A DNA stretch of 64,000 nt, from positions 23,118 through 87,117 of the IMG/VR virus record IMGVR_UViG_3300036760_000069; one strand, 5' to 3'. The notes beneath the pieces are model-generated. The model had not been told where the DNA came from. It searched no databases and worked only from the letters and a program-made list of their open reading frames with translations. This DNA is from a virus. Position 1 is the stretch's first letter; every line of letters begins with the position of its first letter. Shown here one piece after another: positions 3,702 through 29,019 of the stretch. Position numbers and translations under genes: made by a program.

Positions 3702-4007
3702 TTAGCTCACCTTCTTGAACTCGTGATACCAAATCGTTTGTTTGGGGTCATAGCCCTTGCGCGGATGGATTTTCTCCCAGATGGCGATGAAGGCCTCGGA
3801 AGTCTCGAACCCTTCCTGGCGGTATCGAGCCTGGGCGACAAAACCGAGAGAGTGCGGCCTGACCAGCGTGAACTCAAACTGCTGACCGAACACGTAAAAG
3901 ACATCGCCAGGCTTCCCCAACGGCTTCGTCCTGCTGGTAGCTGTCTTGCGTCCAGAGCACAGCCGCTCCTCGAACTCAGGCAGGAAGCGAATCACGCTCT
4001 GCTTCAT
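3702..4007 (-). CDS. ASCH/PUA-like domain protein
   Basis: F.PEF.ERL.SGRKTATSR...GDVF...EGF....F...W signature. Confidence 0.75.
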   Translation of the reverse strand: MKQSVIRFLPEFEERLCSGRKTATSRTKPLGKPGDVFYVFGQQFEFTLVRPHSLGFVAQARYRQEGFETSEAFIAIWEKIHPRKGYDPKQTIWYHEFKKVS

Positions 4008-6990: not shown

Positions 6991-6995
6991 CTCAG

Positions 6996-7007
6996 CCCCC
7001 CCCCCCC
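6996..7007. repeat. C12 homopolymer (G12 on the coding strand)
   Basis: Seen directly, 5 nt upstream of the C5-MTase GTG. Confidence 0.9.
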
Positions 7008-7087
7008 ACCTTGATTTCCCGCCGCCTATTAAAACGATCCATGCGCTCCTTCTGGCATTGCCGACAGACACGACGTTGCGGCGCGGC

Positions 7088-7402
7088 TTAGTTTCCGACA
7101 TACGCGAACACCTTAATTTCACGATGATGGTTCGTGACGATCACGCTTGGCCGCCGGTCAATGACGCGCCAGTGCGGCCCACGCAACACACAGCCCCACG
7201 CATTAGGATGAGCCGGTTTAAGCCCCCACTTGTCTGCTAGGACACGGAGGTCGTCGCAACTGACGGACCCGTAGGCCAGCGCTAGCTTCACCGCAACCGT
7301 CCGCATAGTGGCAACGAAGGGCGCGTTGTGAATCTCTACCAGGTCCAGGCCAAACGCCTTCTCCTTCGCGGCGAGCTCATCGTCGAGGGTGAGTTGGCTC
7401 AT
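7088..7402 (-). CDS. conserved phage hypothetical protein
   Basis: DDLR....PAHPNAWG motif; coupled to neighbours. Confidence 0.7.
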
Positions 7403-12429: not shown

Positions 12430-15400
12430 TTATGGAAAGACGCCCTCGCCAGCGGGGACGAGATCCGCCAGCAAGGGTTTAGCCGGCGTCAGCCAGTGGT
12501 GGGCTTTGAGTTTGGCGATGAAGGCGCGGCGGTCGCCCTCTGGGAGGACTTGGAGCATGGTGGTCGCGTAGTAATTCTCGGCCCGTTGCAGGATGCGCCG
12601 CTCCGCCGGCTCCAGTTGCTTGACCACGGCGTCCCGGTCATTCTTGGTCAGCCCCCAGAGGGGAGTCTTATCCCGGAGCGACTGGTGCATGGTCTTTGAG
12701 GTGCCGCCCAGCTCCTTGTACTCGGCGCGGTATTTCGCCTCGGCGGCCGTGTCTCCGTACTTGATCGAGAGCGCGATGTTCTGCAAGGCCTCGCCCTTGG
12801 GGGTGCGCCAGTAGAGCCCGCCGTCGTCCTTCCCAAGGCGTTGCTTGTACTTGGCCTCGATGTCCTGCCAGCTCTGGTAGGCCGCCTGGTCGGGGTTGAT
12901 CTTTCGGATCCCGAGGAAGCCCGTCAGGTTGTCCGATCCGAGGTAGGGCTTGGTCGGCTTGCCGGCGAGGGCGCGTGCCTCCTGCCCAACGGTCGCCTGC
13001 TGGGCCAGATAGTCCCCACGGCTCTGCATCGGGCGCGGGTTAAAGACATCCGGGTAGGTGTTGATACGGCCCACCAGATCCACCGTGTCCTTGACCAGCG
13101 GGGTGATCCCCTGCCAGACCTTGTTGATCGGGGCGTGCCACGTCTTCTGCCAGATCTCGCCCAGCGTCAGGCGCCCATGCAGGTAGTCCCCGACCAGCCC
13201 GGGGGCCTGGTCGAGGCCGAACCACGACAGGGCATCCCCCAGCGCACCCAGGCCGGTGAAGACCGGGATGCTCCCGTCCTCCCGTTTGCCACCCAGAATG
13301 ACATGGATGCGGTTGGCGATCGTGGGGTCCGTGTCCTGCAATTCCCGCTCCTCGTCGTCGAAGACGAAGTTATTCCAGACCTGGAGCATCGTCCACAGGG
13401 CGGCGGCCCGGATCAGGAAGGCGGCGACCTTCTTACCAGCGACACCGGCCCCCCTCGCCCCTGCCCCGTAGTCGGCGTCCTCGAAGGCGTTCCGCAAGAG
13501 ATGGGCGTACCGGCCCATATTGACCTCCTGCCAGCTCCAGAAGGGGTACCAGAACCGCCGCAGGGTCTGACCCGCCACAGAAACCCGGTCGTAGGCGCCC
13601 AGCAGCTCGTTGGAGAGCTTAAACGCCCGATCCCGGATGTCTGGCAAGGCCATGACGGTCTCGCGCCTGGAGGCCCCCCAGTTCGCCGGGCGGCCCTCTG
13701 TGTTACCCTGCATCTGCTCCAGATAGTCGAGGTAGGCAGCGTACCGGAGCATGGCCTCGCGGTAGTCCGTCCCTAACCTCGCGGCTTTCCAGTATTTATT
13801 GAACGCTTCGACGGGCAGAGCCAGCGCGCCACCCTTGCCTTCGCGGTCGATCGTGGCCCGGAAAGCCTTGAGTTCGTTGAGATCGCCCATCTCCTGCACC
13901 TGGAGGGTGGACCCGTAGCCCCCACGCTCTGCCCATTCCTTTGCCTCGCCGGTCAGGGGTTCATCCTTGAACATGACGGGCCACATCTCTTTGATGGCCT
14001 GCTGGACCTTCTTGAAAGCCCCCGGGTTGCCGACGAACAGGGCATCCGAGTCGCCGGACAGGTTCCGCAGGTTGTACCCGATCACCCGCCGCGGGGCGAT
14101 CAGCATGACCTGCTTCCAGTGGGATAGGGCCGCCCGGTTGAGATCGACAAACCAGTTCGGTGCCGGCTGGGCCAGCTCGTCGAGCGTGACCGCCACCTCG
14201 TCCTTGACGACATACTGCTCGCGGGGCCCGCCCTGGGCCATCATCGTCCGGAGCATCTCCTTGGTCAGGCCCACCTCCTCCAGCGCGTGTTCGTGCAGGG
14301 CCTTGGCGAGCTGGGCGGGGATCGTGTCCGCCATGTAGAAGATGTTGCCCTCGCGGGGCTGCCAGAGCGTGTACCCGTCCGGGACGAGATCCTGCCAGGT
14401 CTTGTACGCCTTCCCCAGCACGCCCTTGATGAACGCTTTGCGCTCGCCGATCGCCTTGAAGATCCCCAGCGCGTGCATCTGGCCGGGGGATTCCGGGTCG
14501 TTGGCGATGGCCTGAATCTGCTCCATCGTCAGCTTGTCGGCCGGTTGCAGATCGAGCGCGTCCCGGAGGCGGTGCTGGTGCATCCCCAACCGCTGGCGGA
14601 AGTGCTTCATCTGGACGTCAATGAGGCTCACCCCGCCGGGGGCCGCCAGCTCGGCGTCGATCCGCTTTTGAAGGGTCTGCTGGTTGGCGGCCCGCGCCTC
14701 CCCCTTGAGCCGTTGCCGGATGTTATGGGCCTCGTCGACGCCCTTGATGACCTTGGCGAGCTGGGTGTCGTAGGCCATCTGGGCCATGACCTCGAACTCG
14801 GCCTGGATGTAGTTCGCGTTGATGTCGAAGGTGGACCCCTCACGCTTCTTGAGGAACCCCCGACCGGTCGGCGTCCGGAGCCGCTTGCCAGACCCAGCAA
14901 TCAACCGTTGCTCACGGGCATAGTCCAGTACCTGATGCCGGAAGTAGTCCTCCTTGGTCAGCTTCTTGCTCACATCGAACCCGATGGCGTCCATGGCCTT
15001 CTTGTAGTCGGTCGTCAGGCCCTTCCAGAGTTCCTTTCGAGCGGCCCAGGCGGCTCGAATAGCGGGATCCTTCTGGACGCGATCATCAATCCGTTCCAGA
15101 TCGTGCGTGACCGAGTCCGGCGTGTACTCGAACGGGAGTTTGTTCCCCTTCGCCGCTTCGTGCGAGAGGTCGGTCAGCAACGCCTTCCATTCGAGGTCGT
15201 CGTATTGCATTGGCGAGAGGGGCTTGACGATCCGCGCCAGTTCGCGCTCGATCCGGTCTGCCTGGATGCCCTTCTGCTTCGAGAGCTTGAGGAGGTCGTT
15301 GCGGAGCCGGCTGAACTCGGCGGTATCCGGCAGATGCTCGAACTCGCGGGAGGTCAGGCGCCAGACCTGCTTGAGATGCTCTTTGGCCCACTCCTTCCAA

Positions 15401-18400
15401 GAGATCGGTTGCAGACCCTTCTTGGCCTTGCGAACGCGAGCATCAATAGTCGGATTGGCCGATCTGAACCAGCCAGGCTTTGGCCCCTCGTTCACCTCCT
15501 TCCCGAGCGGCACGCCGCCACGCTCATTGAAGCGGCGCATCTTGGAGATACCCTCGTTCGGCACCCAGGCGAGGATGGCCTTGACGCCCTTGTTGATCGC
15601 AGCGTACTGCCGGCGGCGGCCGTCGAGAGCTTCGCCGCCTTCGCCGTCAATGATGATCGGGTACTTCCCGGTCGGCGTCTCGGTGGTCAGCTCGAGTGTC
15701 TTAGGGTTGACCGCCTTCAGCGTCCACTTGTCGCCGTACCCGCTGATGCCGTGGAGGTCGTTATAGTCGAGCTTGCCGAAGGAGTCCTTCAGGGGGAGGG
15801 TGTCGAGGTAGTCCTCGAACTCGGCGCGGGTGAGCGTGTCGCCTTGGACAGGCTGGCCTCTCTTGGCGCGACGATCAGGTAGTGCGGCGCGGGATGATAC
15901 CGCTTGGGCCGGACGCTGACGGCGGCCTGGTAGAGGGATTTGGGATTGTGCCCCGCCGCCTTCGCCTCCTTCAGGATGTGCCGCACCGAGTCCGCGTCCA
16001 CGAAATCGTTCATGGCCGGTGCTAATCTTCTCAAAAACGTCATGTGATTCTTCACCCTGAAAGGGTTTGAGTGTGTCGACGTCAGCGGCAATTTGTGCAA
16101 GGAGAGTTTTGGCACCATTGGGGCCTCCCATGTCGCCCAGCATCACCTCAAGGGCGGCGGCGCTTTCCTTGATCGTGCGGGCTTGATTGTAACTGTTGAT
16201 GGCGGCGAACGCTTCATTGTGCGGGCGCACGGACTGATGACTGATTTCATGCACCGCCGTCGAGATCACCATGGCGGCAAACTCTTTCGCCAGATTCTCC
16301 GGCGGAATCCGTCCGTTCAGCACATGCCCATTGACATCCTGGTAGATGTCGTAGGGGTTGATGAGAATGTAGTTGCTCTGGTCGCCCTTGAAGATCGAAC
16401 TCCCGCCGATGTTCACGCCGAGGTACTTGCCGATTCCGATCCCCTGGAAGACGACCGATCCGTACTGATCTCCGTAGGGGATCAGCGCCTTCTGGAGTGG
16501 CGCAAAGGCGCGGGCCATCATCAGCGCGAGTTGCTTGACATGCGGTTGGTCCGCCATCTCCTTCAGGATCTCCGGCGGCACGGTCTGCTCGGTGTCCATG
16601 AACTGGAAGTCCGTGCCGGGGACATCCGGGGCCTCCTCGAACGCCTTGCGGAACGTCTCCCGCTCCACATCCAGCGCGTCGGTGACGAGGTCTTGGATCA
16701 GGTACTTGCGGATGACGTCCTTTACATCGCCGCGCAACTTCTCCCGGTTCGTCGTGAAGGGGTAGCCCGTCTGCCCCGGCGTGCGGCGCGACCGGATGTT
16801 GGCGAGGATGGTATGCGGGAGCTTGAGCTTGTGCCCTTTGCCGAAGCTGACGTTGATCGTGAACTGGTAGAGGCCGTTGTTCAGGATCTGCACCTTGCCT
16901 GTCTCCATCTCGGCGGTGCCTTCCGCTGCGGAGAAGTCCACCTCGCCGCCCTGGAACTCCAGCGTGCGTGTCCGGGCCACGCCCATCGCCTTCCAGTTCT
17001 TCTCGGGGTTGATCTCCAAGCCCCCGATCGAGGCCGAGAGCTTGAGCGGCATCTGGTGAAAGGCCGTGACGTTCTCCAGCCACTTGCGAATCGCCGGCGT
17101 ATCGAACTCCATCTTGTCCGGGTACTTGAGCCGGACACGGGTGCCTGGGGTCGCGTCGGGATCGGCCGCCTTGATCGTGGCGGTCAGGCCCTTCTCCTGG
17201 TTCAGCCAGTCGGCCCCGGACCCGCTTAGATGCGTCTCAACCATGCCACGGGCCGGATCGTAGGCGACCGTCTTGATGTCGATGTTGTCGGCCCCGGCGA
17301 AGATGACCACCTTGGCGACCCCGAACATGCCGGCGGCGTCTTCAGTCTTCTTGCTCCCGCCAAAGTCCACCAGCTCCTTGAACGCCACATCAGGGAGCAT
17401 CCCGGTTCCCGTGTCGTCAATCGTGATCTTGTGATCGTCCGGGAAGACCTCGATCCGCACCATGGCCCCCGCTTTGTCGGTCAGCCCGCGGGTGCCGTCC
17501 GTGGCGTTCTGCACCAGCTCCTTGACGATGACCTTGGAGGGATGCTCGGAGTACAGGCCCTCGCCCATGGCCTTGATGCGGTTCGGGTCGATGCCGGCGG
17601 CGGCCCCGTGCCCACCCTCCTCTTTGACGACCTTGATATAGGAAACATCAGCACGCCCATATTGTGTATCTAACACGACCATCGCTGGGAACGACTTCGC
17701 CCCCAGTAACTTCAGCGCGTCGAAGCGGTGGCCGCCTTCCAACACATACGGGCCTGCCTTACTCCCATCCTCGACGACGATCAGCGGTTCGATTTCACCA
17801 GACTCCTTGATCGTGTTCGCAAGAGCTTCGACCTTGTGCTTCTCTGTCCGGGAATAGAATGAAGGCTTTCCATCGTCTTGAAATGCGGAGATCGGCACCT
17901 CGCGTACACCGTCAAGTATTTCGTACTTCGTCAGGCTGGCCTTAATGGAGGACTGGTTGGACGCCTCGCCCACCACCCGGCGCCCATCAACCACATTACC
18001 GGCCCGCTTGAACTTTGTCTTGAACGCCTTCATGTGGCTGGTGATCTCGCCCTGCCCCATCTCGGAATCCACGATCTCGGCGACGGGGTGGTTCGCCACG
18101 ATCTTTTCAAAGGCCGAGGCCCCCTTCTCGCCCGTCGGGATGAAGATGCGCGTCTTGAACTGGATGATCTCGCGGAACGCCCCGGCGGCCTCCAGCTCCT
18201 TCCACGCCCGCTCGACCCCGTTGCCCACGATCTCGATGCGCGTCTCGCCGGCGACGGTCTTGCGCTCGAACCGCCACCCGTTGACCAGCGCGATCTTGCT
18301 CCGCTTCTTGAGGATGGTGTCCATGGCCTGCGCGGGCGTCAGCGTCGGCAAGTCCACCGAGGCCCCCAGCCGGCGGAGAACAGCCGACACATCGCCCTCC

Positions 18401-21400
18401 CGGACCACCCGCCCCAGATACCGCTTGCCGGTGTCGTCCTGGACGCGCATGACTCGGACATGGTCCTGCGGGAGCCTGTCCCATATCGGGAGCAAGGTGC
18501 CGGAAATCAGATGCAGGGGTTCCTCGCGGTAGGGTGGATGCGTGTCAATCGTCTTCTTCCAGAGGGCTTTGCCGGCGTCTGGATTGATCGCCGCGTAGTG
18601 CTTGCTCAGGCCGTCCTCGTCCACATAGTAGTACGTCTCGGCGACGGGGCTGATGAGGCGGAAGTGTTTGTTGACGCCTCCCGTTTTCGGGTCCGTGCGC
18701 GTTCCGGTATAGACCGAGGCGAAGACCTTCTCGGTCTTGTTGCTCTGGACGTACCCCTGAAAGCCCTCCTTCTTCTCGACCTCCTTGGTCTGGACGAAGT
18801 TCACATCATGCTTGGTGTCCATCGAGACCATCGACGTTGTGGCGCCGCTGATCGGATCGCGGTAGACCTGTTGTTCCTTGATCGTCTTCACGCTGCGAGC
18901 CTTGTACGTTTCGAGACCCACATCGAGTTGTCCGAGCGAGGCCGCGTGGTCGATCGCCTGCTCCATGCGCTCGCTGAAAGCATCGAACACGGCGTTTTGA
19001 TCGTGGATCTCCAAGGCCAGAATCCGATTAAGAAACTGCGGGACTTTCGGGATCTTGTCCTCGTTGATGGACCCATCATCGGCGACAAGGCCCGTCAGCC
19101 CCATCTTGCCCTCGATCATCTCCTTGAAGTCCACGGTCGGGACTTCCCCGCGATGGGCGTCCAACACCAGTGCCCGCACCGCGCCTTGCGCGTATTTGTT
19201 TTCAAGGTTGTCTTTGGCGTTGATGAGGCCTGAGCTGCCCGTCTTGCGCTCGCCCTTGGTCATGGCCCCAAGCTGATCCAACCGGCGGCCGATGGTCGAG
19301 ATAAACCGCTTGTGCCCTTTCAGGTTCGTCATCACCAGCACATAATGCGGGGCATTGGCCTCGTTCGTGCGGTGTGAACGGCCCAGCCCTTGAATGAACT
19401 TTTCCGCCCGCCAGCCAGGTTGCACGCCATAGTGCCAGCGTTGCCGCTGGTTCTTGATACGCCGATCCGAATGGAAGCTGCGCCCAGTGCCGCCGGCGTC
19501 TGAAAAGACAAGGATCGACTTCTTATCAGCAAGGTATTCGTCTACCTCATGGGCGGCGAGCGAGGGTGAACGAGACTGGATCACCGTCTTCTCGCGCCCC
19601 AGATTGTCTTTGAGGCGCACCACGCGGCGGCTCCGACCCGTGACTTCCGCCACGGCGTCCGGCCCAAAAGTGTTGATGATGAACTCCAGCGGGCCTTCGG
19701 GTACCTTCAGCGACCCGACCGAGAGAAGCATGTCCTGCTTGAGCTGGATGGCGTCCTGGTTCTGCACGGGGTTGCCATCATGGTCCAGCACGGGGCGAGA
19801 CCGGATGTTCCCTTGCTCGTCCTGGTACTGCTCGTACTGTTGCGTCGGAAAGGACTTCTCCAGAAACTGCATCAGGGCATCGCGTGGCGTGAGATCGAGA
19901 TTTTCCAGATCGCCGTCTTCTTGCTCGGCGTTTTGGATCTGCCGCTCCATGCCCGCCTCGTTGGTGTTGACGAGTTGAGCGATAATGGCCTTGCCATCCT
20001 TGATCTTCGCTTCCATATCGGCGATGACGGTGGGCATCTGCATGGCCGTCAGCACCTGATTGAAGAACCGGAGTTCCGTGCCCCAGAAATTGGAGAGCAA
20101 GGTGGACTTGGCGCCCGCGTTCTTGGCCTTCCCGCCCTCGGTGACGCCCGTGAGTTCGAGGGCCTGATTGATGTTTGCCAATACCACCTGCCATGCCCGC
20201 GCCAGTCCGTTGTAGATGTCTTCTTGTTCTGGCGTCAACACATGCTCAAGAGTGCTATATGTGACCTCTGAGAAGTCGAGCGAGCGAGCGATATAGACGC
20301 CCATGGCCTTCATGTCACGGGCGACCACTTCCATCGCACCCAAACCGCCTTCCGTGATCTTCGCCGAGAAATCATTCTGGTCAGGGAAGGCCGTACCGGG
20401 CCCCCACAGACCGAGCCGTTCAGCATACCCCAGCGTGTCTACCGAGTTCGCGCCGGTCGCCGAGGCATACACAATGCGAGCCTTCGGCACCTGCTTGCGG
20501 AGGTCAAGGGCCGCAAGAGCCTGGATGGAGGCTTGCTGGTGGATGCCACGCGCCCCCATCGACTGCGTGGTCTTTTGCATGTTATGGGCTTCGTCGAACA
20601 CGATCACGCCATCGAAGTCTTTGCCGAGCCACGCTAGGATCTGATTGACCCGCGATTGTTTGGGCTGGTTCGTTTTCTTGTCTGTAATGGGAATGACCTT
20701 GCCGGTCTTATCCGTCATTAAGTTGGAGCGGATCGTGGCATAGGTGGTGAACATAATGCCCTTGGGTTGGTCGATCGGTTCGCCGAGTTTGGTCTTGCCG
20801 AGTTCAAAAACTTGGCCCTTGTCGCCGCCAATATCCACCCAGTCGCGCTTGGCGTCGGCTATGAGCCTAGAAGACTCCGAGACCCAGATGGCTTTCTCGC
20901 GCCCGTTGCGGAAGTTATCCAGAATGACGGCGGAGATCTGCCGGCCCTTCCCGACCCCCGTGCCATCGCCCAAGAAGAAGCCCTTGCGCGTCCCGTCTGA
21001 CAGAAATAACTCATGGGCCTGTCCTGCGTACACGGGCGTCTCGAGCTGGGCCAGCGAGAGGGCGCCGGAATCAATCAGATCCTGCGGCAGGTTGGGCGTG
21101 TAGGTCGGATCGGGCGGGAGCGTGTCCGCCATGGCCGCCGACTCTACCAGTTTGCCAGGGTGCGGTTTGGCACCAGGAATCCGCACCTTGGGTGGTTGGT
21201 ACTCGTCGTAGACGGCGTCGGTGAGTTCTTTGGTCGTGCTGGGGAACTTGGATTCAGGTTCGCTGGAAGCGACGACCGTTATCCCGGACTGAACGGGTAT
21301 ATGGGCGGGTACGTTCCCTTCATCCGCGGGTCGTCCCGCAGGCGCAGGTCGAGGGCCTCCAGTACCTTCACCGCCGCCCGCCTTGGGCTCATGGCCTTGG

Positions 21401-24400
21401 ATAGGTCGCTCTCCTCCAGCAACGGGGAGTCCGGGCTCTCTGGGCTGTTGAGGAACCACTCCAGCGCCCTCTTTCCGTCCGGGTACGCGAGGAGGCCGTC
21501 CAGTTTCTGTCGCAGGATGTCGCTGTCCCCCCCCGGCGGTGTGGTCAACCGGCCGTGGTCGAGTCCCCACATCGCCAGTTGGAACAGGTACGGCAGATCC
21601 GGGTCCGGTTTGGCCCCCGCCACCTTCAGCCACCGCTTGGCCTCCACGTTGAGCGGGTGGTCGTTGTTCGTCTGGTCGGGTCGCTTGTCCTTCAACGCTG
21701 GGGCGGTCATCGCGCACCTCCTTGAGGAGATTGAGGGCTTCATAGGGGTTCTCGGCCTTCCCTGTTACCACCTCTACTGAAGGAGAGGGGGCCACTTTAT
21801 CGAAAATCAAGATGCGGTTGTCAAAATCAGTGCCGTATTTCTTGTACCCCTTGCCGGACATGACCACGCTGGCACGAAGCTGGTACTTCTTGGCGAGGGC
21901 GTCGATGGCGCGGGAGACCCCCTCGGACTGCCCCATGAACCCCTCGCCGATCAGGGCGACGAGTCGCCCATTCGGGGCCAGGAGCTTCAGGGCCTGGTCG
22001 ATGTGTTTGCTGATGGCGTTGGTACTCTTGCGCTCGCCCGTGATCCGGCCGGCCGTCGAGGAAAACGGCGGGTTCATCACGATCACCGTGGGCGTGACTT
22101 TGAGGATGTTGGCAATCTGTTCGGCGTTCTCCGTCGTCACCTTGTTGAAGACGATGGTATTGAGGAGTCCGGCCCGCCGCGGCGAAAGTTCGTTGACATC
22201 CACATCGGCCCCGAAGTTCTTGGCGAAGATCGCCAGCCCACCCAAGCCGGCACTTGGCTCCAGCATGACATCCTTGGGGGTGATGTGCGCCGCCCAGTTC
22301 ATCACGAACGCCAGATCCGGGGGGGTCGAGAACTGTTGGAACTCGACCATCTCCGGCGTGCGTCTCGTCCCCTGCGACGGGATCTTGTCCATGATCTGCT
22401 CACGCAGGTAGTTGAGCATCTCCCGCGCTTTTATGAGGCTATAGGTGGTGGGTCTGTAGACGCCATCAGGGCCCAGCATCTCGCCGATGAAGCGGTTGAT
22501 CCCCAGCTCGAGGGCATCATTCAGATCCTTGACGGTGTAGGTGCCGTCCGCCTGTGTGCCCCCAAAGTCCTCATTGGCTCGCGTGACCAGTTGATCCATG
22601 CTGAACGACAGTACACCAGGCGCCGTGTCCTCTTTCAGGCGTTCCTCGACAAAGTAGGCGATGTTCATACTCGCGCCGACGATCTTCTGCTCCGTGGTCG
22701 CTGGAGCTTCAACCGCCGGGATCGTGGGCTCGTCGGGTAAGACCGCGCCGCGCCCGCCCTTGGTGAGCAGGTCCGCCTTCTCCTGATCGGTCATGGCGGG
22801 CTTCGGAGCGGGCAGGCTGGGGGTCGTCGGGCTGGGCGTCTTCGGTTCGCTGGCCTTGACCTGTGAATCGTAGAAGGCATCCAACGCAGACTTCTCGCTC
22901 CCGATCGGACGATCAGGCGTCCCCGGCATGAAGCCCCATTTTGAGCCATCTGGGCGGTAGATGTTCCATTCCTTGCCGGTGCGCCGTGCAGTCCACCCTG
23001 CGGCGAGAAATTCATCCTTGGTCATGTCGGCAGGGTTGGCCGTTGGGACGGTCTTTGTCTCTGGCACCAGCCCAGGCGTCTGAGCTTCGGCCTTCTGCGG
23101 ATACTCGTCAGGGTGGTGCGCGAGCTTGTACTTCGCGTCCTCGATCGCCCGCTCCCATCGTGCCCAGTCGTCCGGGTAGCCGTGCGTTTCAAAGTCGTCG
23201 AGGCCGGCTTGCGCGACTTCGATGATTCGGTATGGATCGCCAGCATTCTCGGCCTTTGTCAGGGCGCGCTTGTGCTTGCGGTAGAGATCCTGCCGGAAGT
23301 CGCCCGTGGGGGCCTTGTCCTCGTCCTTCCAGCCGCCGGGAGGGGGCTTGTCGGCGACGGTCGGACGCTCAGGAGAAGGCAGGCCAGGAGCGGCATGGTG
23401 TTCGGCCTTGGGTGCTTCCGGTTTTGGCTCCTCTGGTGTTTTCTTGGCGACAGGTCGATAGACTTGGATCCCCTCATCCCCTCGTTGAATAGCTTCGTAG
23501 AGACGGTTATTGCCATCAATCACCTCGCCCGCATGATCCAGCACAATCGGGCCATTCGTCATTGACCCTCGCGGAACAAACTCGGCGCCATCCCAGAGCA
23601 TCTCGTTACCTTTACGAAGTGATTCGATCGGCACTCTTGCCTGTTCCCACTGTGAATCGGTGAGATGGGCGTCCTCGTTCTTGTTTGTTTTACGTCCCAG
23701 CTCCGTGTACCCGATAGCGTTCTGAGCGGACTCTGGGAGTTCCTTAAAAGCCAGCGTCTTTATCGATTTGATTTCCTGTTTGGGGATTGGGAATCCTGGT
23801 GCGGCAGGGCGTTCGGCTTTGACTTCTGGTTTTGGCTCCTCTTTTGAGGGCGCAGAACCGGAACCTGCCGGCATCGTCAGCGCATCCTGCACCTGCTTCT
23901 TCTGCTCATCGCTCAGGCCGTTGTACGGGCGCCCGAACAAACCACGTGCTGCCTCGTTCGGCGTGGCATACTTCTTGGGCGAGAGGGCCTCATTCGCCGT
24001 CTGCCCCTTCCCGACCGTGAAGTTCGCCTCGGCGGCGGCGGCGGCCTCCTCCATCGACGGGTAGGTGCCAAGCGTGTCCTTACCGCGAATGTCCCACGCC
24101 TCAAACTGCCCGTCGTCGCGCTCAATGACCATGGCCTTCGGCTTCTCAGGATTGCCGCCGGCCCAGATGTAGGTCGATTCGCCAGGTACGGCCCCATGTT
24201 CCCACCCCGCCGGCAAGCCTGTCGTTGGTTCATTCGCCGGAGCCACACCTTGCTCAGTTTGGGGGGCTGGCAGGCCAGGAACAGGGGTAGGTTGAATGTC
24301 GGAGACCCTATCCGCACGCTTCTTCAGGAACGGTTCGCGTTGAACTGGAGCCAATTCTGGCGGAATGGCGGCTACTTCGGCCTTGGCCCGCGCATTGACC

Positions 24401-26277
24401 TGATCGCCCACCCTGGGTGGACGGGCTTCGGGGCCAGCGGCAGGGGGTGGGGCTTCGATGCCGGGGACGGTTCCCGTAATCTGCTTCACTGAACCAGAAT
24501 CTGTCTCAGCGCGCCGCCCACTTTCTGCGGGGTTAGGCGGTTCTTGTCCTTCAGGTTGTCCTGGCGGTTGGACCGTCCGCCCGCCCTTCTGGGCCGCTTT
24601 GAGGGCGGTATTGTACGCCTCGGTCAGGTCCATGAAGGCCTTTGTCTTGGCGGCCTGCGCCTTTGGGTCTGGGTCTACAAGGTCCGGGCGCATGGACTTA
24701 ACCGCGTTTCGGTACGCGGCCTTCACATCGGCATCCGTCGCCGTGTCAGGGTCCAGCCCAAAGAACTCGAACGCCTTGGCATTGTATTGCTTGGTGGGTT
24801 CGCCGGCCTGGCTCTCCCATCTGGCCCGCACCCCCTCCATGGCGGCCGTCGGGATGCCGAACATCGCCGCCATCGAGACCACATCCTTCCAGTCGTCCCC
24901 AAAGGCAGCTCCGTAGGCGGCCCCCGTGGCGGTCTGGGCGGCAACATGGACGGCCTTTCCGAGTGGGCGTGTGACTTGTCCCACTACGCCTGGTACCGTA
25001 AAGAGCGCGGCGGTTTTAGCCGCTTCGGCGGGAGACTCCTCGGCACCCTTGGTGAATCCCACGATCCCAGGAGCGACGGTTGCGGCGGTCTTTCCGACCA
25101 TCCCGAGAGCGGTCAGTCCTTTGGTGACGGCGGACAACGGGATGCCATATTCAGCCGCGAATCCAGCCAGACCCGAGGCAACCCGATCTGCAATGTCGAG
25201 AGCATCCTGTGTGCTGGTGGTGGCTCCACTCTGCCGATTCGTCTTAGCAGGCAGGTACTTTTCGAGACCATCGGCATAGGAGTTCAAAATCTGGCTGAAC
25301 TCCGGGATGCGCGGATCCTCTGCCATCCGCCGTCGAGTGGCTTCAGGAAGACGGGTCAGGATGTCAGGGAGTGGACCTTCACCGGCTTCCTGTCGGCTCA
25401 TGGTGATGGCGTCGAGTTGTGCGCTGAGTGACCGCAGGAGATTCGCCCCACCCGAATTAACGGCCTGGGCAACTGAGAATGTGAAATTCTCAAGGCTTTG
25501 TGGAGAGGCTGGCCCTTGGCGTTGCGGGGTTGGCAGTCCTGGTACTTGGACGGTCGGACGCAGAACCTCCGGTTGCTCAATCGCCTGTCCGGTAACACGG
25601 GTGGTCGGGATTGCGTTTTTGTCAATCGTGGGCGCGGGTTCTTCAACCGGGTTGCCGGTGATCGTGTCGATCATCTGCCCGCTCTGGGTGACAAAGCGGT
25701 TGGGATGCTCCGGGAGCTTGAACCGCGACGGCCAATGCCCGCTGGCGTCCGGGGTGGCGCCGGCGGTGTAGGCTCCACGGTAGTCGTAGAAGTGTTGCGG
25801 GTCGTCCGGGTTGGGGTTCAGGCCCTGCGTGGCGGCGTGCCCCCCGTACCACTCCTGGAAGGCGGGTTCGTTGAAGGCGGGCTTGGCGGCAACGGGCGCG
25901 GGCGTCGGAGCCGGGCGTGGCTGCGGCACCAGATCCCCGTAGAAGGAGCCGACCTCCTTGGCGGTCTCAATCGGCGAGGTGATGACGTCGACCGCACTCT
26001 TGCCGAGGCTGGCGGCGCCGGTCTTGATGTCCTGCCAGAACCCTTGCGGCTGGGGCGTGGTCTCCAGCCCCTGCACCTGTTGCAGCTCGGCACGCCGTTT
26101 CTGGATATAGGCGTCGAAATCTGGTTTGGGGGCGGTCTGGAGGTGCTTGAGCCACCGCTCATCGCCGGGCAGAGACCCGACCTTCAGCTCGGCGATCGCC
26201 GCCTCGCGGGTCGAGGTGGGGACGAAGTCCCGGAGCCAGGTCGCCGTCTCGTCGTCTTCGAGGAGCGGCCGGGCCAC
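12430..26277 (-). CDS. giant polyvalent (DarB-like) protein: J-like domain, three ParB-like domains, methyltransferase, Strawberry-notch helicase, GHKL ATPase, HExxH motif, helical C-terminus
   Basis: QQFSTP, LEPSAGLG, MNPPFS; GDGTGVGKGR, DEAHN, QGLGRSHRTN; KELVQNATD, DTGTGM, GMFGVA; HEISH. Confidence 0.88.
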   Translation of the reverse strand: MARPLLEDDETATWLRDFVPTSTREAAIAELKVGSLPGDERWLKHLQTAPKPDFDAYIQKRRAELQQVQGLETTPQPQGFWQDIKTGAASLGKSAVDVITSPIETAKEVGSFYGDLVPQPRPAPTPAPVAAKPAFNEPAFQEWYGGHAATQGLNPNPDDPQHFYDYRGAYTAGATPDASGHWPSRFKLPEHPNRFVTQSGQMIDTITGNPVEEPAPTIDKNAIPTTRVTGQAIEQPEVLRPTVQVPGLPTPQRQGPASPQSLENFTFSVAQAVNSGGANLLRSLSAQLDAITMSRQEAGEGPLPDILTRLPEATRRRMAEDPRIPEFSQILNSYADGLEKYLPAKTNRQSGATTSTQDALDIADRVASGLAGFAAEYGIPLSAVTKGLTALGMVGKTAATVAPGIVGFTKGAEESPAEAAKTAALFTVPGVVGQVTRPLGKAVHVAAQTATGAAYGAAFGDDWKDVVSMAAMFGIPTAAMEGVRARWESQAGEPTKQYNAKAFEFFGLDPDTATDADVKAAYRNAVKSMRPDLVDPDPKAQAAKTKAFMDLTEAYNTALKAAQKGGRTVQPPGQPEGQEPPNPAESGRRAETDSGSVKQITGTVPGIEAPPPAAGPEARPPRVGDQVNARAKAEVAAIPPELAPVQREPFLKKRADRVSDIQPTPVPGLPAPQTEQGVAPANEPTTGLPAGWEHGAVPGESTYIWAGGNPEKPKAMVIERDDGQFEAWDIRGKDTLGTYPSMEEAAAAAEANFTVGKGQTANEALSPKKYATPNEAARGLFGRPYNGLSDEQKKQVQDALTMPAGSGSAPSKEEPKPEVKAERPAAPGFPIPKQEIKSIKTLAFKELPESAQNAIGYTELGRKTNKNEDAHLTDSQWEQARVPIESLRKGNEMLWDGAEFVPRGSMTNGPIVLDHAGEVIDGNNRLYEAIQRGDEGIQVYRPVAKKTPEEPKPEAPKAEHHAAPGLPSPERPTVADKPPPGGWKDEDKAPTGDFRQDLYRKHKRALTKAENAGDPYRIIEVAQAGLDDFETHGYPDDWARWERAIEDAKYKLAHHPDEYPQKAEAQTPGLVPETKTVPTANPADMTKDEFLAAGWTARRTGKEWNIYRPDGSKWGFMPGTPDRPIGSEKSALDAFYDSQVKASEPKTPSPTTPSLPAPKPAMTDQEKADLLTKGGRGAVLPDEPTIPAVEAPATTEQKIVGASMNIAYFVEERLKEDTAPGVLSFSMDQLVTRANEDFGGTQADGTYTVKDLNDALELGINRFIGEMLGPDGVYRPTTYSLIKAREMLNYLREQIMDKIPSQGTRRTPEMVEFQQFSTPPDLAFVMNWAAHITPKDVMLEPSAGLGGLAIFAKNFGADVDVNELSPRRAGLLNTIVFNKVTTENAEQIANILKVTPTVIVMNPPFSSTAGRITGERKSTNAISKHIDQALKLLAPNGRLVALIGEGFMGQSEGVSRAIDALAKKYQLRASVVMSGKGYKKYGTDFDNRILIFDKVAPSPSVEVVTGKAENPYEALNLLKEVRDDRPSVEGQATRPDEQRPPAQRGGQAVAEGGGGQTGPGSAVPVPTGDVGTRPRPVDHTAGGGQRHPATETGRPPRVPGRKEGAGVVPQQPREPGLPVAGGERPIQGHEPKAGGGEGTGGPRPAPAGRPADEGNVPAHIPVQSGITVVASSEPESKFPSTTKELTDAVYDEYQPPKVRIPGAKPHPGKLVESAAMADTLPPDPTYTPNLPQDLIDSGALSLAQLETPVYAGQAHELFLSDGTRKGFFLGDGTGVGKGRQISAVILDNFRNGREKAIWVSESSRLIADAKRDWVDIGGDKGQVFELGKTKLGEPIDQPKGIMFTTYATIRSNLMTDKTGKVIPITDKKTNQPKQSRVNQILAWLGKDFDGVIVFDEAHNMQKTTQSMGARGIHQQASIQALAALDLRKQVPKARIVYASATGANSVDTLGYAERLGLWGPGTAFPDQNDFSAKITEGGLGAMEVVARDMKAMGVYIARSLDFSEVTYSTLEHVLTPEQEDIYNGLARAWQVVLANINQALELTGVTEGGKAKNAGAKSTLLSNFWGTELRFFNQVLTAMQMPTVIADMEAKIKDGKAIIAQLVNTNEAGMERQIQNAEQEDGDLENLDLTPRDALMQFLEKSFPTQQYEQYQDEQGNIRSRPVLDHDGNPVQNQDAIQLKQDMLLSVGSLKVPEGPLEFIINTFGPDAVAEVTGRSRRVVRLKDNLGREKTVIQSRSPSLAAHEVDEYLADKKSILVFSDAGGTGRSFHSDRRIKNQRQRWHYGVQPGWRAEKFIQGLGRSHRTNEANAPHYVLVMTNLKGHKRFISTIGRRLDQLGAMTKGERKTGSSGLINAKDNLENKYAQGAVRALVLDAHRGEVPTVDFKEMIEGKMGLTGLVADDGSINEDKIPKVPQFLNRILALEIHDQNAVFDAFSERMEQAIDHAASLGQLDVGLETYKARSVKTIKEQQVYRDPISGATTSMVSMDTKHDVNFVQTKEVEKKEGFQGYVQSNKTEKVFASVYTGTRTDPKTGGVNKHFRLISPVAETYYYVDEDGLSKHYAAINPDAGKALWKKTIDTHPPYREEPLHLISGTLLPIWDRLPQDHVRVMRVQDDTGKRYLGRVVREGDVSAVLRRLGASVDLPTLTPAQAMDTILKKRSKIALVNGWRFERKTVAGETRIEIVGNGVERAWKELEAAGAFREIIQFKTRIFIPTGEKGASAFEKIVANHPVAEIVDSEMGQGEITSHMKAFKTKFKRAGNVVDGRRVVGEASNQSSIKASLTKYEILDGVREVPISAFQDDGKPSFYSRTEKHKVEALANTIKESGEIEPLIVVEDGSKAGPYVLEGGHRFDALKLLGAKSFPAMVVLDTQYGRADVSYIKVVKEEGGHGAAAGIDPNRIKAMGEGLYSEHPSKVIVKELVQNATDGTRGLTDKAGAMVRIEVFPDDHKITIDDTGTGMLPDVAFKELVDFGGSKKTEDAAGMFGVAKVVIFAGADNIDIKTVAYDPARGMVETHLSGSGADWLNQEKGLTATIKAADPDATPGTRVRLKYPDKMEFDTPAIRKWLENVTAFHQMPLKLSASIGGLEINPEKNWKAMGVARTRTLEFQGGEVDFSAAEGTAEMETGKVQILNNGLYQFTINVSFGKGHKLKLPHTILANIRSRRTPGQTGYPFTTNREKLRGDVKDVIRKYLIQDLVTDALDVERETFRKAFEEAPDVPGTDFQFMDTEQTVPPEILKEMADQPHVKQLALMMARAFAPLQKALIPYGDQYGSVVFQGIGIGKYLGVNIGGSSIFKGDQSNYILINPYDIYQDVNGHVLNGRIPPENLAKEFAAMVISTAVHEISHQSVRPHNEAFAAINSYNQARTIKESAAALEVMLGDMGGPNGAKTLLAQIAADVDTLKPFQGEESHDVFEKISTGHERFRGRGLGAAHPEGGEGGGAQSQIPLPGRRQRPAQAVSSRAALPDRRAKRGQPVQGDTLTRAEFEDYLDTLPLKDSFGKLDYNDLHGISGYGDKWTLKAVNPKTLELTTETPTGKYPIIIDGEGGEALDGRRRQYAAINKGVKAILAWVPNEGISKMRRFNERGGVPLGKEVNEGPKPGWFRSANPTIDARVRKAKKGLQPISWKEWAKEHLKQVWRLTSREFEHLPDTAEFSRLRNDLLKLSKQKGIQADRIERELARIVKPLSPMQYDDLEWKALLTDLSHEAAKGNKLPFEYTPDSVTHDLERIDDRVQKDPAIRAAWAARKELWKGLTTDYKKAMDAIGFDVSKKLTKEDYFRHQVLDYAREQRLIAGSGKRLRTPTGRGFLKKREGSTFDINANYIQAEFEVMAQMAYDTQLAKVIKGVDEAHNIRQRLKGEARAANQQTLQKRIDAELAAPGGVSLIDVQMKHFRQRLGMHQHRLRDALDLQPADKLTMEQIQAIANDPESPGQMHALGIFKAIGERKAFIKGVLGKAYKTWQDLVPDGYTLWQPREGNIFYMADTIPAQLAKALHEHALEEVGLTKEMLRTMMAQGGPREQYVVKDEVAVTLDELAQPAPNWFVDLNRAALSHWKQVMLIAPRRVIGYNLRNLSGDSDALFVGNPGAFKKVQQAIKEMWPVMFKDEPLTGEAKEWAERGGYGSTLQVQEMGDLNELKAFRATIDREGKGGALALPVEAFNKYWKAARLGTDYREAMLRYAAYLDYLEQMQGNTEGRPANWGASRRETVMALPDIRDRAFKLSNELLGAYDRVSVAGQTLRRFWYPFWSWQEVNMGRYAHLLRNAFEDADYGAGARGAGVAGKKVAAFLIRAAALWTMLQVWNNFVFDDEERELQDTDPTIANRIHVILGGKREDGSIPVFTGLGALGDALSWFGLDQAPGLVGDYLHGRLTLGEIWQKTWHAPINKVWQGITPLVKDTVDLVGRINTYPDVFNPRPMQSRGDYLAQQATVGQEARALAGKPTKPYLGSDNLTGFLGIRKINPDQAAYQSWQDIEAKYKQRLGKDDGGLYWRTPKGEALQNIALSIKYGDTAAEAKYRAEYKELGGTSKTMHQSLRDKTPLWGLTKNDRDAVVKQLEPAERRILQRAENYYATTMLQVLPEGDRRAFIAKLKAHHWLTPAKPLLADLVPAGEGVFP
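21279..21710 (-). CDS. overprinted 143-aa protein nested in the giant gene
   Basis: AAGGAGGT-GCGCG-ATG; globular-looking translation where the host frame is G/P/R-rich. Confidence 0.7.
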   Translation of the reverse strand: MTAPALKDKRPDQTNNDHPLNVEAKRWLKVAGAKPDPDLPYLFQLAMWGLDHGRLTTPPGGDSDILRQKLDGLLAYPDGKRALEWFLNSPESPDSPLLEESDLSKAMSPRRAAVKVLEALDLRLRDDPRMKGTYPPIYPFSPG

Positions 26278-27772: not shown

Positions 27773-28190
27773 TGGCCGCCCTCGATATTTGATGTCTATT
27801 CCGGTCGCACATTCGACATCGACGCCTCACTCCTTGATGGATAGCCGTATTGGCTTTGTCGTAAACGTGACCTTTCGGACACGCTTTTTTCGCTGCATTC
27901 ATAGCCGCAATCGTATCGCCTCGGAGGACGTTTACTTTTCCTGTCACAACCTCTAGATGATCTGGATTGACACAGCGGATGTTCCGACATAGATGGTCGA
28001 TCTGTAGGCCGTCAGGTATCGGCCCGTGCGCCAGTTCGTAAGCGAAGCGATGCGCGTATACCTGTCGCGTGCCGTTCCAAAATACGCCGTACCGGTTGCC
28101 ATTGGCAGCGCCTGTCCAGACATCGCAGTCCCTGATACTTTGTACGAACAAGGCAAAACGCTCTGCTGCTGGTTTATGTGGTCTGCTCAC
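27765..28190 (-). CDS. HNH homing endonuclease
   Basis: AHRFAYE..GPIPDGLQIDHLCRNIRCVNPDHLE; CPKGH. Confidence 0.92.
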   Translation of the reverse strand: MSRPHKPAAERFALFVQSIRDCDVWTGAANGNRYGVFWNGTRQVYAHRFAYELAHGPIPDGLQIDHLCRNIRCVNPDHLEVVTGKVNVLRGDTIAAMNAAKKACPKGHVYDKANTAIHQGVRRRCRMCDRNRHQISRAANA

Positions 28191-29019
28191 GCATTCCTTC
28201 TCCGACTGGGGTACAGTATTTCAGCGTCTTAAACAGAGCTGCACGGGTCGCTTCGTGCTCCTCAAAGGAGCGGGCAATGTTCGGAATCAGCGCCCCGTCG
28301 CGTTTGGGGCAGGATACTTGCTCACCACGATGGTTGGAATTTAAACAATTGTAGCATGTGACCATGCGATCAGGATTGACACTTTCGATATTATCTACAT
28401 ACCTGCGCCGATCGAATGGAAGATCGTAATGAGCGATATAGGCCCACACATCATCATCAGTCCAATCACTTAGCGGGAAGGCGACCATCGTGGTCGCGTA
28501 CTGCACGCAGGGCATCATCGGCCCCGACCGATCCGCCAAATGAAACGGGTCGCCTTCCTTCGATCCCATGATCGTCAAATCCCATGGGTAGTCGGTGGCG
28601 AGGGCCTTGGGGCGGAGCAGGAAATCGTCAATGGCGCAGAAGTACCGCTCGCCGTCCGACGGCTTGTACGCCCGGATGCCGTCCACCATGATGATGTTGT
28701 CGCTCAGGCCACACCGATAGAAGTCCAGAATCTCAAAGTAGTCCCCTTGCTGGTATTCGATGGTCGCCGACGGCATCAGGTCGAACACCTCCAGATCCCA
28801 CTCGCGGGCCACTTGGTAGGCATGTTCAAACTGCGCCTGAAACTTGGCGTGGCGAAAGAACAGCACCGGCACCTTCTTTTTGATCCGCAAGGCGAGATGC
28901 AGGGCGACAATGGAGTCCTTGCCGAAACTACAACAGACCACAGGCCGCGCCGACGTCGACAGATGGGCCGCCATCCGTGCGAGGGTCCGAGATTCCATCT
29001 CTTTCATCATCGTGTCCAT
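28174..29019 (-). CDS. PAPS-reductase-family (PP-loop) protein
   Basis: CSFGKDSIV PP-loop; FPLSDWTDDDVWAYI; C-terminal CYNC...CP. Confidence 0.85.
   Translation of the reverse strand: MDTMMKEMESRTLARMAAHLSTSARPVVCCSFGKDSIVALHLALRIKKKVPVLFFRHAKFQAQFEHAYQVAREWDLEVFDLMPSATIEYQQGDYFEILDFYRCGLSDNIIMVDGIRAYKPSDGERYFCAIDDFLLRPKALATDYPWDLTIMGSKEGDPFHLADRSGPMMPCVQYATTMVAFPLSDWTDDDVWAYIAHYDLPFDRRRYVDNIESVNPDRMVTCYNCLNSNHRGEQVSCPKRDGALIPNIARSFEEHEATRAALFKTLKYCTPVGEGMREQTT

What the first reader, a model, noticed from the sequence alone, without database searches (positions are those of the whole stretch)
21279..21722. Overprinted gene with a perfect Shine-Dalgarno hidden inside the giant protein
Seen: AAGGAGGT-GCGCG-ATG at 21710 opens a 143-codon same-strand, shifted-frame ORF that reads like a folded helical protein (LPYLFQLAMWGL, KRALEWFLN, AVKVLEALDLRL). 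The host frame over the same interval is a G/P/R/Q-rich linker between the methyltransferase and helicase domains. Inference: a separately translated partner (chaperone, inhibitor, antitoxin or packaging guide) is encoded in the linker, which would be a little-noticed design in polyvalent proteins.
Basis: partly seen in the sequence, partly recalled or inferred. Interest (0 to 1): 0.75.

Follow-up and report, generated by a model that had tools for sequence, protein, structure and literature searches.

The report
Conserved gene hidden in giant-protein linker
The 143-codon shifted-frame ORF inside this phage's 4,615-residue multi-enzyme protein is a real, unannotated gene for a small folded helical protein, kept in about 140 related phage, prophage and plasmid genes from many bacterial phyla, while the giant protein reads the same DNA only as a floppy spacer.

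Summary
Observation confirmed. AAGGAGGT, a 5-nt spacer and ATG at 21710 (minus strand) open a 143-codon ORF ending in TAA at 21279-21281. It lies in the +1 frame of the 4,615-aa gene 12430-26277.

ORF length alone proves nothing at 61% GC: the giant gene holds eight same-strand alternative ORFs over 100 aa. Comparison settles it.
- Of 160 homologous MTase/strawberry-notch-helicase loci, 137 have a profile match to this protein ("X"), always in the +1 frame.
- The host frame is open across X in 120 of 121 loci, and the third frame in 0 of 121.
- The start is ATG in 116 and GTG in 5 of 121. The host codon under it is xAT in 109 of 113, never xAC. An SD core is present in 82%, against an 11.7% background.
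- X's third codon position varies most.
- X folds confidently (pLDDT 87). The host reading is disordered (pLDDT about 30-39) and not conserved.
- Five alphaproteobacterial plasmid homologues without X also lack most of the linker.

X matches no Pfam, PHROG, NCBIfam, PADLOC or PDB entry, and I found no paper on it. Its function is unknown; a trans-acting partner of the MTase-helicase module is an inference. Codon usage suggests the linker was overprinted on X, not the reverse. Earlier follow-ups of this scan reached the same conclusion on other genomes.

The parts
21279..21710 (-). Embedded gene X: 143 codons plus TAA, in the +1 frame relative to the giant gene. It encodes a small six-helix protein of an undescribed family.
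   Evidence: Homologues in the +1 frame in 121 (iteration 2: 137) of 160 loci. 106 protein clusters by phmmer. AF2 pLDDT 87.1, pTM 0.81. Codon-position pattern.
21716..21723 (-). Shine-Dalgarno AAGGAGGT, 5 nt upstream of the X start. It is encoded by host residues K-E-V in the last helix of the MTase module.
   Evidence: An SD core lies 5-12 nt upstream of the start in 93 of 113 unique loci, against 11.7% of all +1-frame ATGs.
12430..26277 (-). Host gene: a 4,615-aa polyvalent protein. Pfam finds a weak J-domain, a ParB-N domain and the strawberry-notch helicase; the NPPF adenine MTase is visible in the translation. The further ParB-like, GHKL and zincin parts named in first-reader notes were not re-tested here.
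   Evidence: Earlier notes e1-6054040 and e1-6054047 for the untested parts.
21292..21669 (-). Host-frame reading of the overlap (host residues about 1537-1662): a disordered, unconserved G/P/R/S-rich linker.
   Evidence: AF2 of the host segment gives pLDDT below 50 and no secondary structure for segment residues 311-436. No tblastn similarity in the host frame. Composition: G 19.5%, almost no hydrophobic residues.
21709..22599 (-). MTase module (host residues about 1227-1523, NPPF motif). Its last helix carries X's SD and start codon.
   Evidence: helix at segment residues 285-297.
18907..21165 (-). Strawberry-notch-type helicase (AAA_34 at residues 1705-2023, Helicase_C_4 at 2197-2457), starting just after the X stop.

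Best explanation
X is a genuine protein-coding gene lying wholly inside the giant polyvalent gene, on the same strand in the +1 frame. It is translated on its own from an internal Shine-Dalgarno and ATG that sit in the last helix of the methyltransferase module. It ends exactly where the next conserved host segment begins. Its product is a small (median 121 aa), mostly acidic, compact six-helix protein of a family with no annotation. The giant protein reads the same roughly 430 nt only as a disordered spacer that must stay free of stops.

Shown by sequence comparison: two-frame maintenance, start and RBS conservation, amino-acid-level purifying selection on X, and a confident fold.

Inferred, not shown: X acts in trans as a non-enzymatic partner (regulator, adaptor or chaperone) of the MTase/strawberry-notch-helicase module. 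The reasons are that it has no conserved catalytic-type residues and that it travels with that module in both phage and conjugative-plasmid proteins whose other domains differ. I put this functional part at about 0.4. Codon usage and conservation suggest X is the older reading and the linker the overprinted one.
For: Frames:
- X-profile hits occur in 121 (iteration 2: 137) of 160 homologous loci, all in the +1 frame.
- The host frame is open across X in 120 of 121 loci, and the third frame in 0 of 121.
- Most of the 23 loci without a hit still hold a +1 ORF at the same spot. In the 49%-GC locus L117 it is the only alternative ORF of at least 90 aa in 6 kb.

Start site:
- ATG in 116 and GTG in 5 of 121 loci.
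- The host codon under A-T is AAT, GAT, CAT or TAT in 109 of 113 unique loci, never xAC. The next host codon always begins with G while its amino acid varies (D, E, A, G, V).
- An SD core is present in 93 of 113, against an 11.7% background.
- An X-frame stop lies at most 1 codon upstream of the start in 19 of 113 loci.

Selection:
- For pairs at 60-80% X identity, nucleotide identity at X codon positions 1/2/3 is 0.73/0.83/0.56. X amino-acid identity is 0.69 against 0.43 for the host frame on the same bases.
- The flanking domains show the normal host pattern, 0.63/0.72/0.355.
- X-frame synonymous codon usage fits the flanks better than the host-linker frame does, in 79 of 113 loci, p=2e-10.

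Protein:
- phmmer finds 106 clusters at E<=1e-3, mostly 110-150 aa.
- AF2 gives pLDDT 87.1 and pTM 0.81. The host reading of the same DNA gives pLDDT about 30-39.

Link to the module:
- X is embedded and unannotated in the 2,547-aa Methylotuvimicrobium alcaliphilum conjugative-plasmid protein. That protein shares only the MTase-helicase part with the phage protein.
- Five X-less alphaproteobacterial plasmid homologues have a junction 90-150 codons shorter.
Against: - There is no direct evidence of translation: no proteomics and no ribosome profiling.
- The function is wholly inferred. No fold or family match gives a hint.
- X-less MTase-helicase proteins exist, so X is not essential to the dyad.
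- X evolves fast: about 25% mean identity against about 55% for the flanking domains.
- The X alignment was built in the X frame, which favours X in the identity comparison. The codon-position pattern in close pairs does not depend on this.
- The codon-usage method for dating overlapping frames is only moderately reliable.
Confidence: 0.88

Rival explanations
1. X is not initiated independently. It is the C-terminal extension of a truncated trans-frame product (N-terminus, MTase, then X) made by programmed +1 ribosomal frameshifting, with the SD-like element acting as a frameshift stimulator.
For: Internal SD-like elements stimulate frameshifting in prfB and dnaX (established knowledge). The X frame is open for 18 codons upstream of the ATG in the window.
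Against: A start codon (ATG or GTG) sits at the equivalent position in all 121 loci, and synonymous host sites are constrained to keep it. The SD spacing of 6-10 nt is typical of initiation. In 19 of 113 loci an X-frame stop lies at most 1 codon before the start, leaving no room for a shift site. No conserved slippery run or zero-frame stop is visible in the start contexts.
Confidence: 0.03
2. The ORF is a chance open frame in GC-rich DNA. Alternatively, the region is conserved at the nucleotide or RNA level rather than as a protein.
For: At 61% GC the giant gene contains eight same-strand alternative ORFs of at least 100 aa, one of 278 aa.
Against: The ORF is kept at the same place in loci with 44-50% GC. 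The third frame is never open. Codon-position periodicity is in the X frame. A profile-detectable protein family exists. The predicted fold is confident. One protein carries the X domain in frame behind a real HTH_3 domain (P0027).
Confidence: 0.02
3. X is a real gene but an autonomous effector rather than a partner of the host protein. For example, it could be an acidic anti-restriction or anti-defence protein (DNA-mimic-like) or a small regulator. It would be lodged in the linker only for compact co-expression with the anti-restriction module.
For: Family median pI is 4.8 and net charge -6. The surrounding module is the DarB-type anti-restriction dyad (PMC5512222). The plasmid version sits with ArdC-N. 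The X domain occurs once fused to an XRE-type HTH.
Against: The window's own X is nearly neutral (pI 6.1, charge -1). There is no fold similarity to Ocr, ArdA or other known mimics at Z>3.1 and no PADLOC or Pfam hit. The HTH-X fusion is a singleton.
Confidence: 0.25
4. X is a delivery chaperone. It would be a small acidic protein that keeps the giant protein competent for capsid packaging and ejection, or for type IV secretion, in the way secretion chaperones are encoded next to their cargo.
For: X is small, acidic and helical, and is encoded within its putative cargo. It is present both in phage virion-type polyvalent proteins and in a conjugative-plasmid transfer-region protein.
Against: No structural or sequence similarity to known chaperones. 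Plasmid homologues in conjugative contexts manage without X. Packaging or transfer of these proteins was not tested.
Confidence: 0.15

Closest known systems
Lambda Rz/Rz1 embedded spanin genes (established knowledge; PMC5295617 listed)
   Same: A complete gene with its own start lies wholly inside another gene, on the same strand in the +1 frame, in a dsDNA phage. Both products are made from one mRNA.
   Different: Rz1 is an outer-membrane lipoprotein that pairs with Rz in lysis. X has no lipobox or signal sequence, is a cytoplasmic-type helical bundle, and is unrelated in sequence. Here the outer frame is only a disordered interdomain spacer of a 4,615-aa enzyme fusion, and the arrangement spans many phyla and both phages and plasmids.
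traH inside traI of IncP plasmid RP4 (recalled from memory, not checked here)
   Same: A small acidic protein is encoded in another frame within a large DNA-processing gene of a conjugative transfer region, and is reported to stabilise the complex formed by the host gene's product. This is the model for the partner hypothesis.
   Different: No sequence relationship was tested. TraI is a relaxase, not an MTase-helicase. The RP4 case is confined to one plasmid group.
DarB-type MTase-helicase dyad of polyvalent proteins, strawberry-notch subtype (Iyer et al. 2017, PMC5512222)
   Same: The host gene belongs to this class: an adenine MTase (NPPF) fused to a Sno-type SWI2/SNF2 ATPase within a polyvalent protein of a phage or plasmid.
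   Different: The paper's text has no occurrence of 'overlap' or 'frameshift' and describes no embedded gene. P1 darB, the archetype, has only a junk-like 177-codon +1 frame before the helicase and no X-profile hit.
Overprinted genes of viruses (reviews PMC8227390 and PMC3494269, listed)
   Same: Two proteins come from one DNA stretch. One reading is ordered and conserved, the other disordered and compositionally biased.
   Different: In the usual case the embedded small ORF is the young, disordered one. Here the embedded ORF is the ordered, conserved reading, and the enclosing giant gene contributes the disordered one.

Membership tests
Embedded same-strand out-of-frame gene (Rz1-in-Rz type architecture) | ORF lies entirely within another CDS, on the same strand, in a different frame | tested here: met
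   21279-21710 lies within 12430-26277, in the +1 frame. The same holds in 120 of 121 homologous loci.
Embedded same-strand out-of-frame gene (Rz1-in-Rz type architecture) | Own start codon and ribosome-binding site, conserved among relatives | tested here: met
   ATG in 116 and GTG in 5 of 121 loci. An SD core in 93 of 113 against an 11.7% background. The host codon is xAT in 109 of 113, never xAC.
Embedded same-strand out-of-frame gene (Rz1-in-Rz type architecture) | Purifying selection on the embedded reading frame | tested here: met
   X codon position 3 is the most variable. X identity is 0.69 against 0.43 for the host frame on the same bases. Flank control.
Embedded same-strand out-of-frame gene (Rz1-in-Rz type architecture) | Product detected experimentally | not testable with these tools
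   No proteomics or ribosome profiling is available for this uncultured phage.
Rz1 / o-spanin protein family | Signal peptidase II lipobox with Cys; proline-rich periplasmic lipoprotein | tested here: not met
   The X translation contains no Cys at all, so it has no lipobox Cys, and it is predicted as a six-helix bundle. No PHROG hit.
Programmed +1 frameshift product | Conserved shift site, no need for an own start codon, and an open frame upstream of the junction | tested here: not met
   A start codon is always present. An X-frame stop lies at most 1 codon upstream in 19 of 113 loci. No conserved slippery motif.
Polyvalent-protein MTase/Sno-helicase dyad (host gene) | Sno-type SWI2/SNF2 ATPase (Pfam AAA_34 plus Helicase_C_4) | tested here: met
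   E=1e-111 and E=9e-81.
Polyvalent-protein MTase/Sno-helicase dyad (host gene) | EcoKI/TaqI-like adenine MTase with an NPP(Y/F) motif N-terminal to the helicase | tested here: met
   NPPF and the EFQQFSTPP helix are visible in the translation and invariant in 51 homologues. No Pfam MTase model reached E<=0.01, so the subfamily assignment rests on PMC5512222.
Any described small-protein family (Pfam, PHROGs, NCBIfam, PADLOC, PDB sequences) | Profile match at or near the family threshold | tested here: not met
   No recurrent hit for 50 members at E<=1 in Pfam. None in PHROGs, NCBIfam or PADLOC. The best PDB profile hit has E=0.19.
   Absent from the Pfam scans of 50 X members at E<=1.
Known helical folds in the PDB | Structural match clearly above the background for helical bundles | tested here: inconclusive
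   Foldseek against PDB and BFVD: nothing at E<=1e-3. VIA-align wide: best Z 3.1.

The most novel reading that the evidence does not exclude
Two enzyme modules (adenine MTase and Sno helicase) became one polypeptide by reading straight through an older intervening gene in another frame, a 'fusion over a gene'. The interdomain linker would then be the overprinted product. The trapped gene X survives as a dedicated trans-acting regulator or chaperone of the very protein that encloses it, and its synthesis is tied to ribosome traffic on the giant ORF.
Probability: 0.3. Interest if true: 0.85.

Novelty: new variant of a known kind. Interest (0 to 1): 0.72.

Why it matters
- A roughly 430-nt same-strand dual-coding region conserved across many bacterial phyla, phages and conjugative plasmids is rare outside small viruses.
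- Standard annotation misses it. RefSeq does not list it in the M. alcaliphilum plasmid.
- It adds an uncharacterised protein family to the anti-restriction 'polyvalent protein' systems.
- It offers a clean genetic handle: host-synonymous changes can switch X off.
- It gives a counter-example to the usual rule that the embedded ORF is the young, disordered one.
- It also warns that 'low-complexity linkers' in giant mobile-element proteins may exist because of genes hidden beneath them.

Tried and rejected
- tblastn of X against INPHARED phages and PLSDB plasmids gave only chance-level hits. The host segment has no relative in cultured-phage records.
- The search for related loci with X alignments failed because no stretch was conserved enough.
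The genomic contexts of the called X-family proteins could therefore not be read. This includes the odd architectures P0027 (HTH_3 plus X), P0017 (two X copies), P0004 and P0113.
- Scans for those proteins in viral and metagenome contigs found nothing, or only ordinary X relatives whose embedding was not checked.
- The HTH-X fusion is a singleton. The 'longer' search gave one hit.
- Most N-terminally extended database entries look like upstream alternative-frame read-in, not real domains.
- The second subfamily, ending ...LQPAASELS, is also embedded in a giant ORF.
- Foldseek (PDB, BFVD), VIA-align wide, the ESM Atlas and the PDB sequence profile gave no usable match.
- P1 darB was checked for an equivalent gene and none was recognisable.
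- The promoter and terminator scan around X found nothing.
PADLOC gave no hit.
- No tree was built to decide between gain and loss of X in the X-less plasmid clade.
Full report
**Observation.** On the minus strand, AAGGAGGT (21723-21716) is followed by GCGCG and then ATG at 21710. The frame runs 143 codons to TAA at 21281-21279. It lies inside the 4,615-aa ORF 12430-26277 on the same strand, shifted by +1. The host reading of the interval is the G/P/R/Q-rich stretch between an NPPF methyltransferase and a strawberry-notch-type helicase (AAA_34 E=1e-111, Helicase_C_4 E=9e-81). The window belongs to an 87-kb IMG/VR virus record rated complete by CheckV. ORF length is no argument here. At about 61% GC the giant gene alone holds eight same-strand alternative-frame ORFs of at least 100 aa, one of 278 aa.

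**Conservation.** The first six IMG/VR homologues showed the key asymmetry. The shifted-frame peptide is found by tblastn in the +1 frame (43% identity over 150 aa, E=5e-28). The host-frame linker finds nothing. The +1 frame is open at the same place in five of the six loci.

I then collected 160 loci carrying the MTase/Sno-helicase core: 79 viral contigs and 80 genome contigs, plus the window itself. The genome contigs come from Pseudomonadota, Bacillota, Desulfobacterota, Verrucomicrobiota, Planctomycetota, Spirochaetota and others. A profile of the small protein ("X") hits 121 of them, and 137 after one iteration, always in the +1 frame. The host frame is open across X in 120 of 121 loci; the exception contains a masked run of N. 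The third frame is open in 0 of 121. Most of the 23 loci without a profile hit still have a +1 ORF at the same position. This includes loci at 44-50% GC, where alternative ORFs are scarce; in L117 it is the only one of at least 90 aa in 6 kb.

**Start and stop.** The start is ATG in 116 and GTG in 5 of 121 loci. In 113 unique sequences the host codon supplying A-T is AAT (67), GAT (33), CAT (6) or TAT (3), and never the synonymous xAC. The next host codon always begins with G, although its amino acid varies (D, E, A, G, V). So the ATG is what is being kept, not the host residues.

An SD core lies 5-12 nt upstream in 93 of 113 loci, against 11.7% of all +1-frame ATGs in the same loci. It is encoded by the host motif L-E-G, or K-E-V in the window, in the last MTase helix. 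In the one X-less homologue that aligns through this helix, the motif is LLAPVR-RT, with neither GGAGG nor ATG. X's stop falls at the first residues of the next conserved host segment.

In 19 of 113 loci an X-frame stop lies at most one codon before the start. That leaves no room for entry by frameshifting.

**Selection.** In pairs with 60-80% X identity, nucleotide identity at X codon positions 1/2/3 is 0.73/0.83/0.56. At 40-60% identity it is 0.57/0.67/0.44. X amino-acid identity is 0.69 where the host reading of the same bases is 0.43. X position 2 is host position 3, so the host's 'silent' position is the best conserved. This is the reverse of the flanking MTase and helicase domains, which show 0.63/0.72/0.355. 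Synonymous codon usage in the X frame matches the flanking domains better than the host-linker frame does (79 of 113 loci, p=2e-10).

**The two proteins.** X belongs to a family of 106 clusters at 50% identity in 1.8 billion representatives, mostly 110-150 aa. The nearly invariant positions are an N in a PLN motif, L-x-x-W in the second helix, and a P before the last helix. There are no conserved catalytic-type residues. AlphaFold2 with 50 sequences gives pLDDT 87.1 and pTM 0.81 for a six-helix bundle. The family is Leu-rich, with median length 121 aa, pI 4.8 and net charge -6; the window's copy is nearly neutral.

The host reading has 19.5% Gly and almost no hydrophobic residues. Within a model of the 733-aa MTase-helicase segment it has pLDDT about 30-39 and no secondary structure over residues 311-436, between confidently folded domains.

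**Comparison with what is known.** X has no match in Pfam, PHROGs, NCBIfam, PADLOC or PDB sequences. No structural match stands out: Foldseek found nothing at E<=1e-3, and the best VIA-align Z is 3.1. The Atlas gave no lead.

The paper that defined polyvalent proteins describes the MTase-helicase dyad and its Sno variant, but no overlapping gene (PMC5512222). Four literature searches found nothing on such a gene. RefSeq does not annotate X in the Methylotuvimicrobium alcaliphilum 20Z conjugative plasmid, where it is embedded (E=2e-25) in a 2,547-aa protein next to traI, the coupling protein, traF and topoisomerase III. That protein shares only the MTase-linker-helicase part with the phage protein, and continues with ArdC-N, a zincin and Toprim. 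X therefore goes with the dyad, not with the other domains.

Five alphaproteobacterial plasmid Sno proteins have no X. Their MTase-to-helicase junction is 90-150 codons shorter. P1 darB has no recognisable X.

**Interpretation.** The core claim is that X is a real, independently initiated, selected gene in the +1 frame, while the giant gene uses the same DNA as a stop-free floppy spacer. It rests on several independent lines of evidence, and I rate it at about 0.9.

This follows from conservation, order versus disorder, codon usage, and the absence of the long linker where X is absent.

Function is unknown. I favour a trans-acting, non-enzymatic partner of the MTase-helicase module (about 0.4). 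The alternatives are an autonomous acidic anti-defence protein (about 0.25) and a delivery chaperone (about 0.15). 

**Earlier notes.** Several earlier follow-ups of this scan, on other genomes, describe the same gene-within-the-linker and reached the same verdict. I treat them as leads only.

Noticed in passing
L177:5803-6300 (NC_016108.1, M. alcaliphilum 20Z plasmid): The Sno polyvalent gene carries an in-frame stop inside the conserved LPTQT...EFQQFSTPP motif (it reads LPT*TRR). RefSeq therefore annotates a 133-aa 'hypothetical protein' and a 2,547-aa protein starting at MEEFQQ. This is either a nonsense mutation or a natural split.
   Followed up: partly
window 16247-17083 (-): The longest same-strand alternative-frame ORF inside the giant gene (278 aa) lies in the GHKL/zincin region. 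It was not tested for conservation because the fetched loci do not reach it.
   Followed up: no
window 21743 (-): An upstream in-frame ATG would extend X to 154 aa. It has no SD and no counterpart in relatives, so 21710 is the conserved start.
   Followed up: yes
P0027, P0017, P0113 (database proteins): The X domain also appears behind a genuine XRE-type HTH_3 domain (P0027), as a tandem duplicate (P0017), and ahead of an unknown 165-aa domain (P0113). These may be non-embedded copies. Each is a singleton, and their contigs could not be read.
   Followed up: partly
L179:10469-17236 (phage P1 darB): P1 darB has a 177-codon +1 open frame (host residues 646-823) just before the helicase Walker A. 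It reads like out-of-frame junk and has no X-profile hit. The P1 record annotates iddB, an antisense gene inside ddrB.
   Followed up: partly
window 4007-7122 (-) and 28174-29019 (-): Two further stand-alone DNA methyltransferase genes (PHROG 67 and 116) and a PAPS-reductase-like gene (PHROG 424) lie in the same phage. An internal-virion-protein homologue lies at 37823-41695.
   Followed up: no
PLSDB: 591 plasmid records, 303 of them typed conjugative, carry MTase/Sno-helicase proteins. In the top 30 listed, only the three Methylococcales records have spans long enough to hold X.
   Followed up: partly
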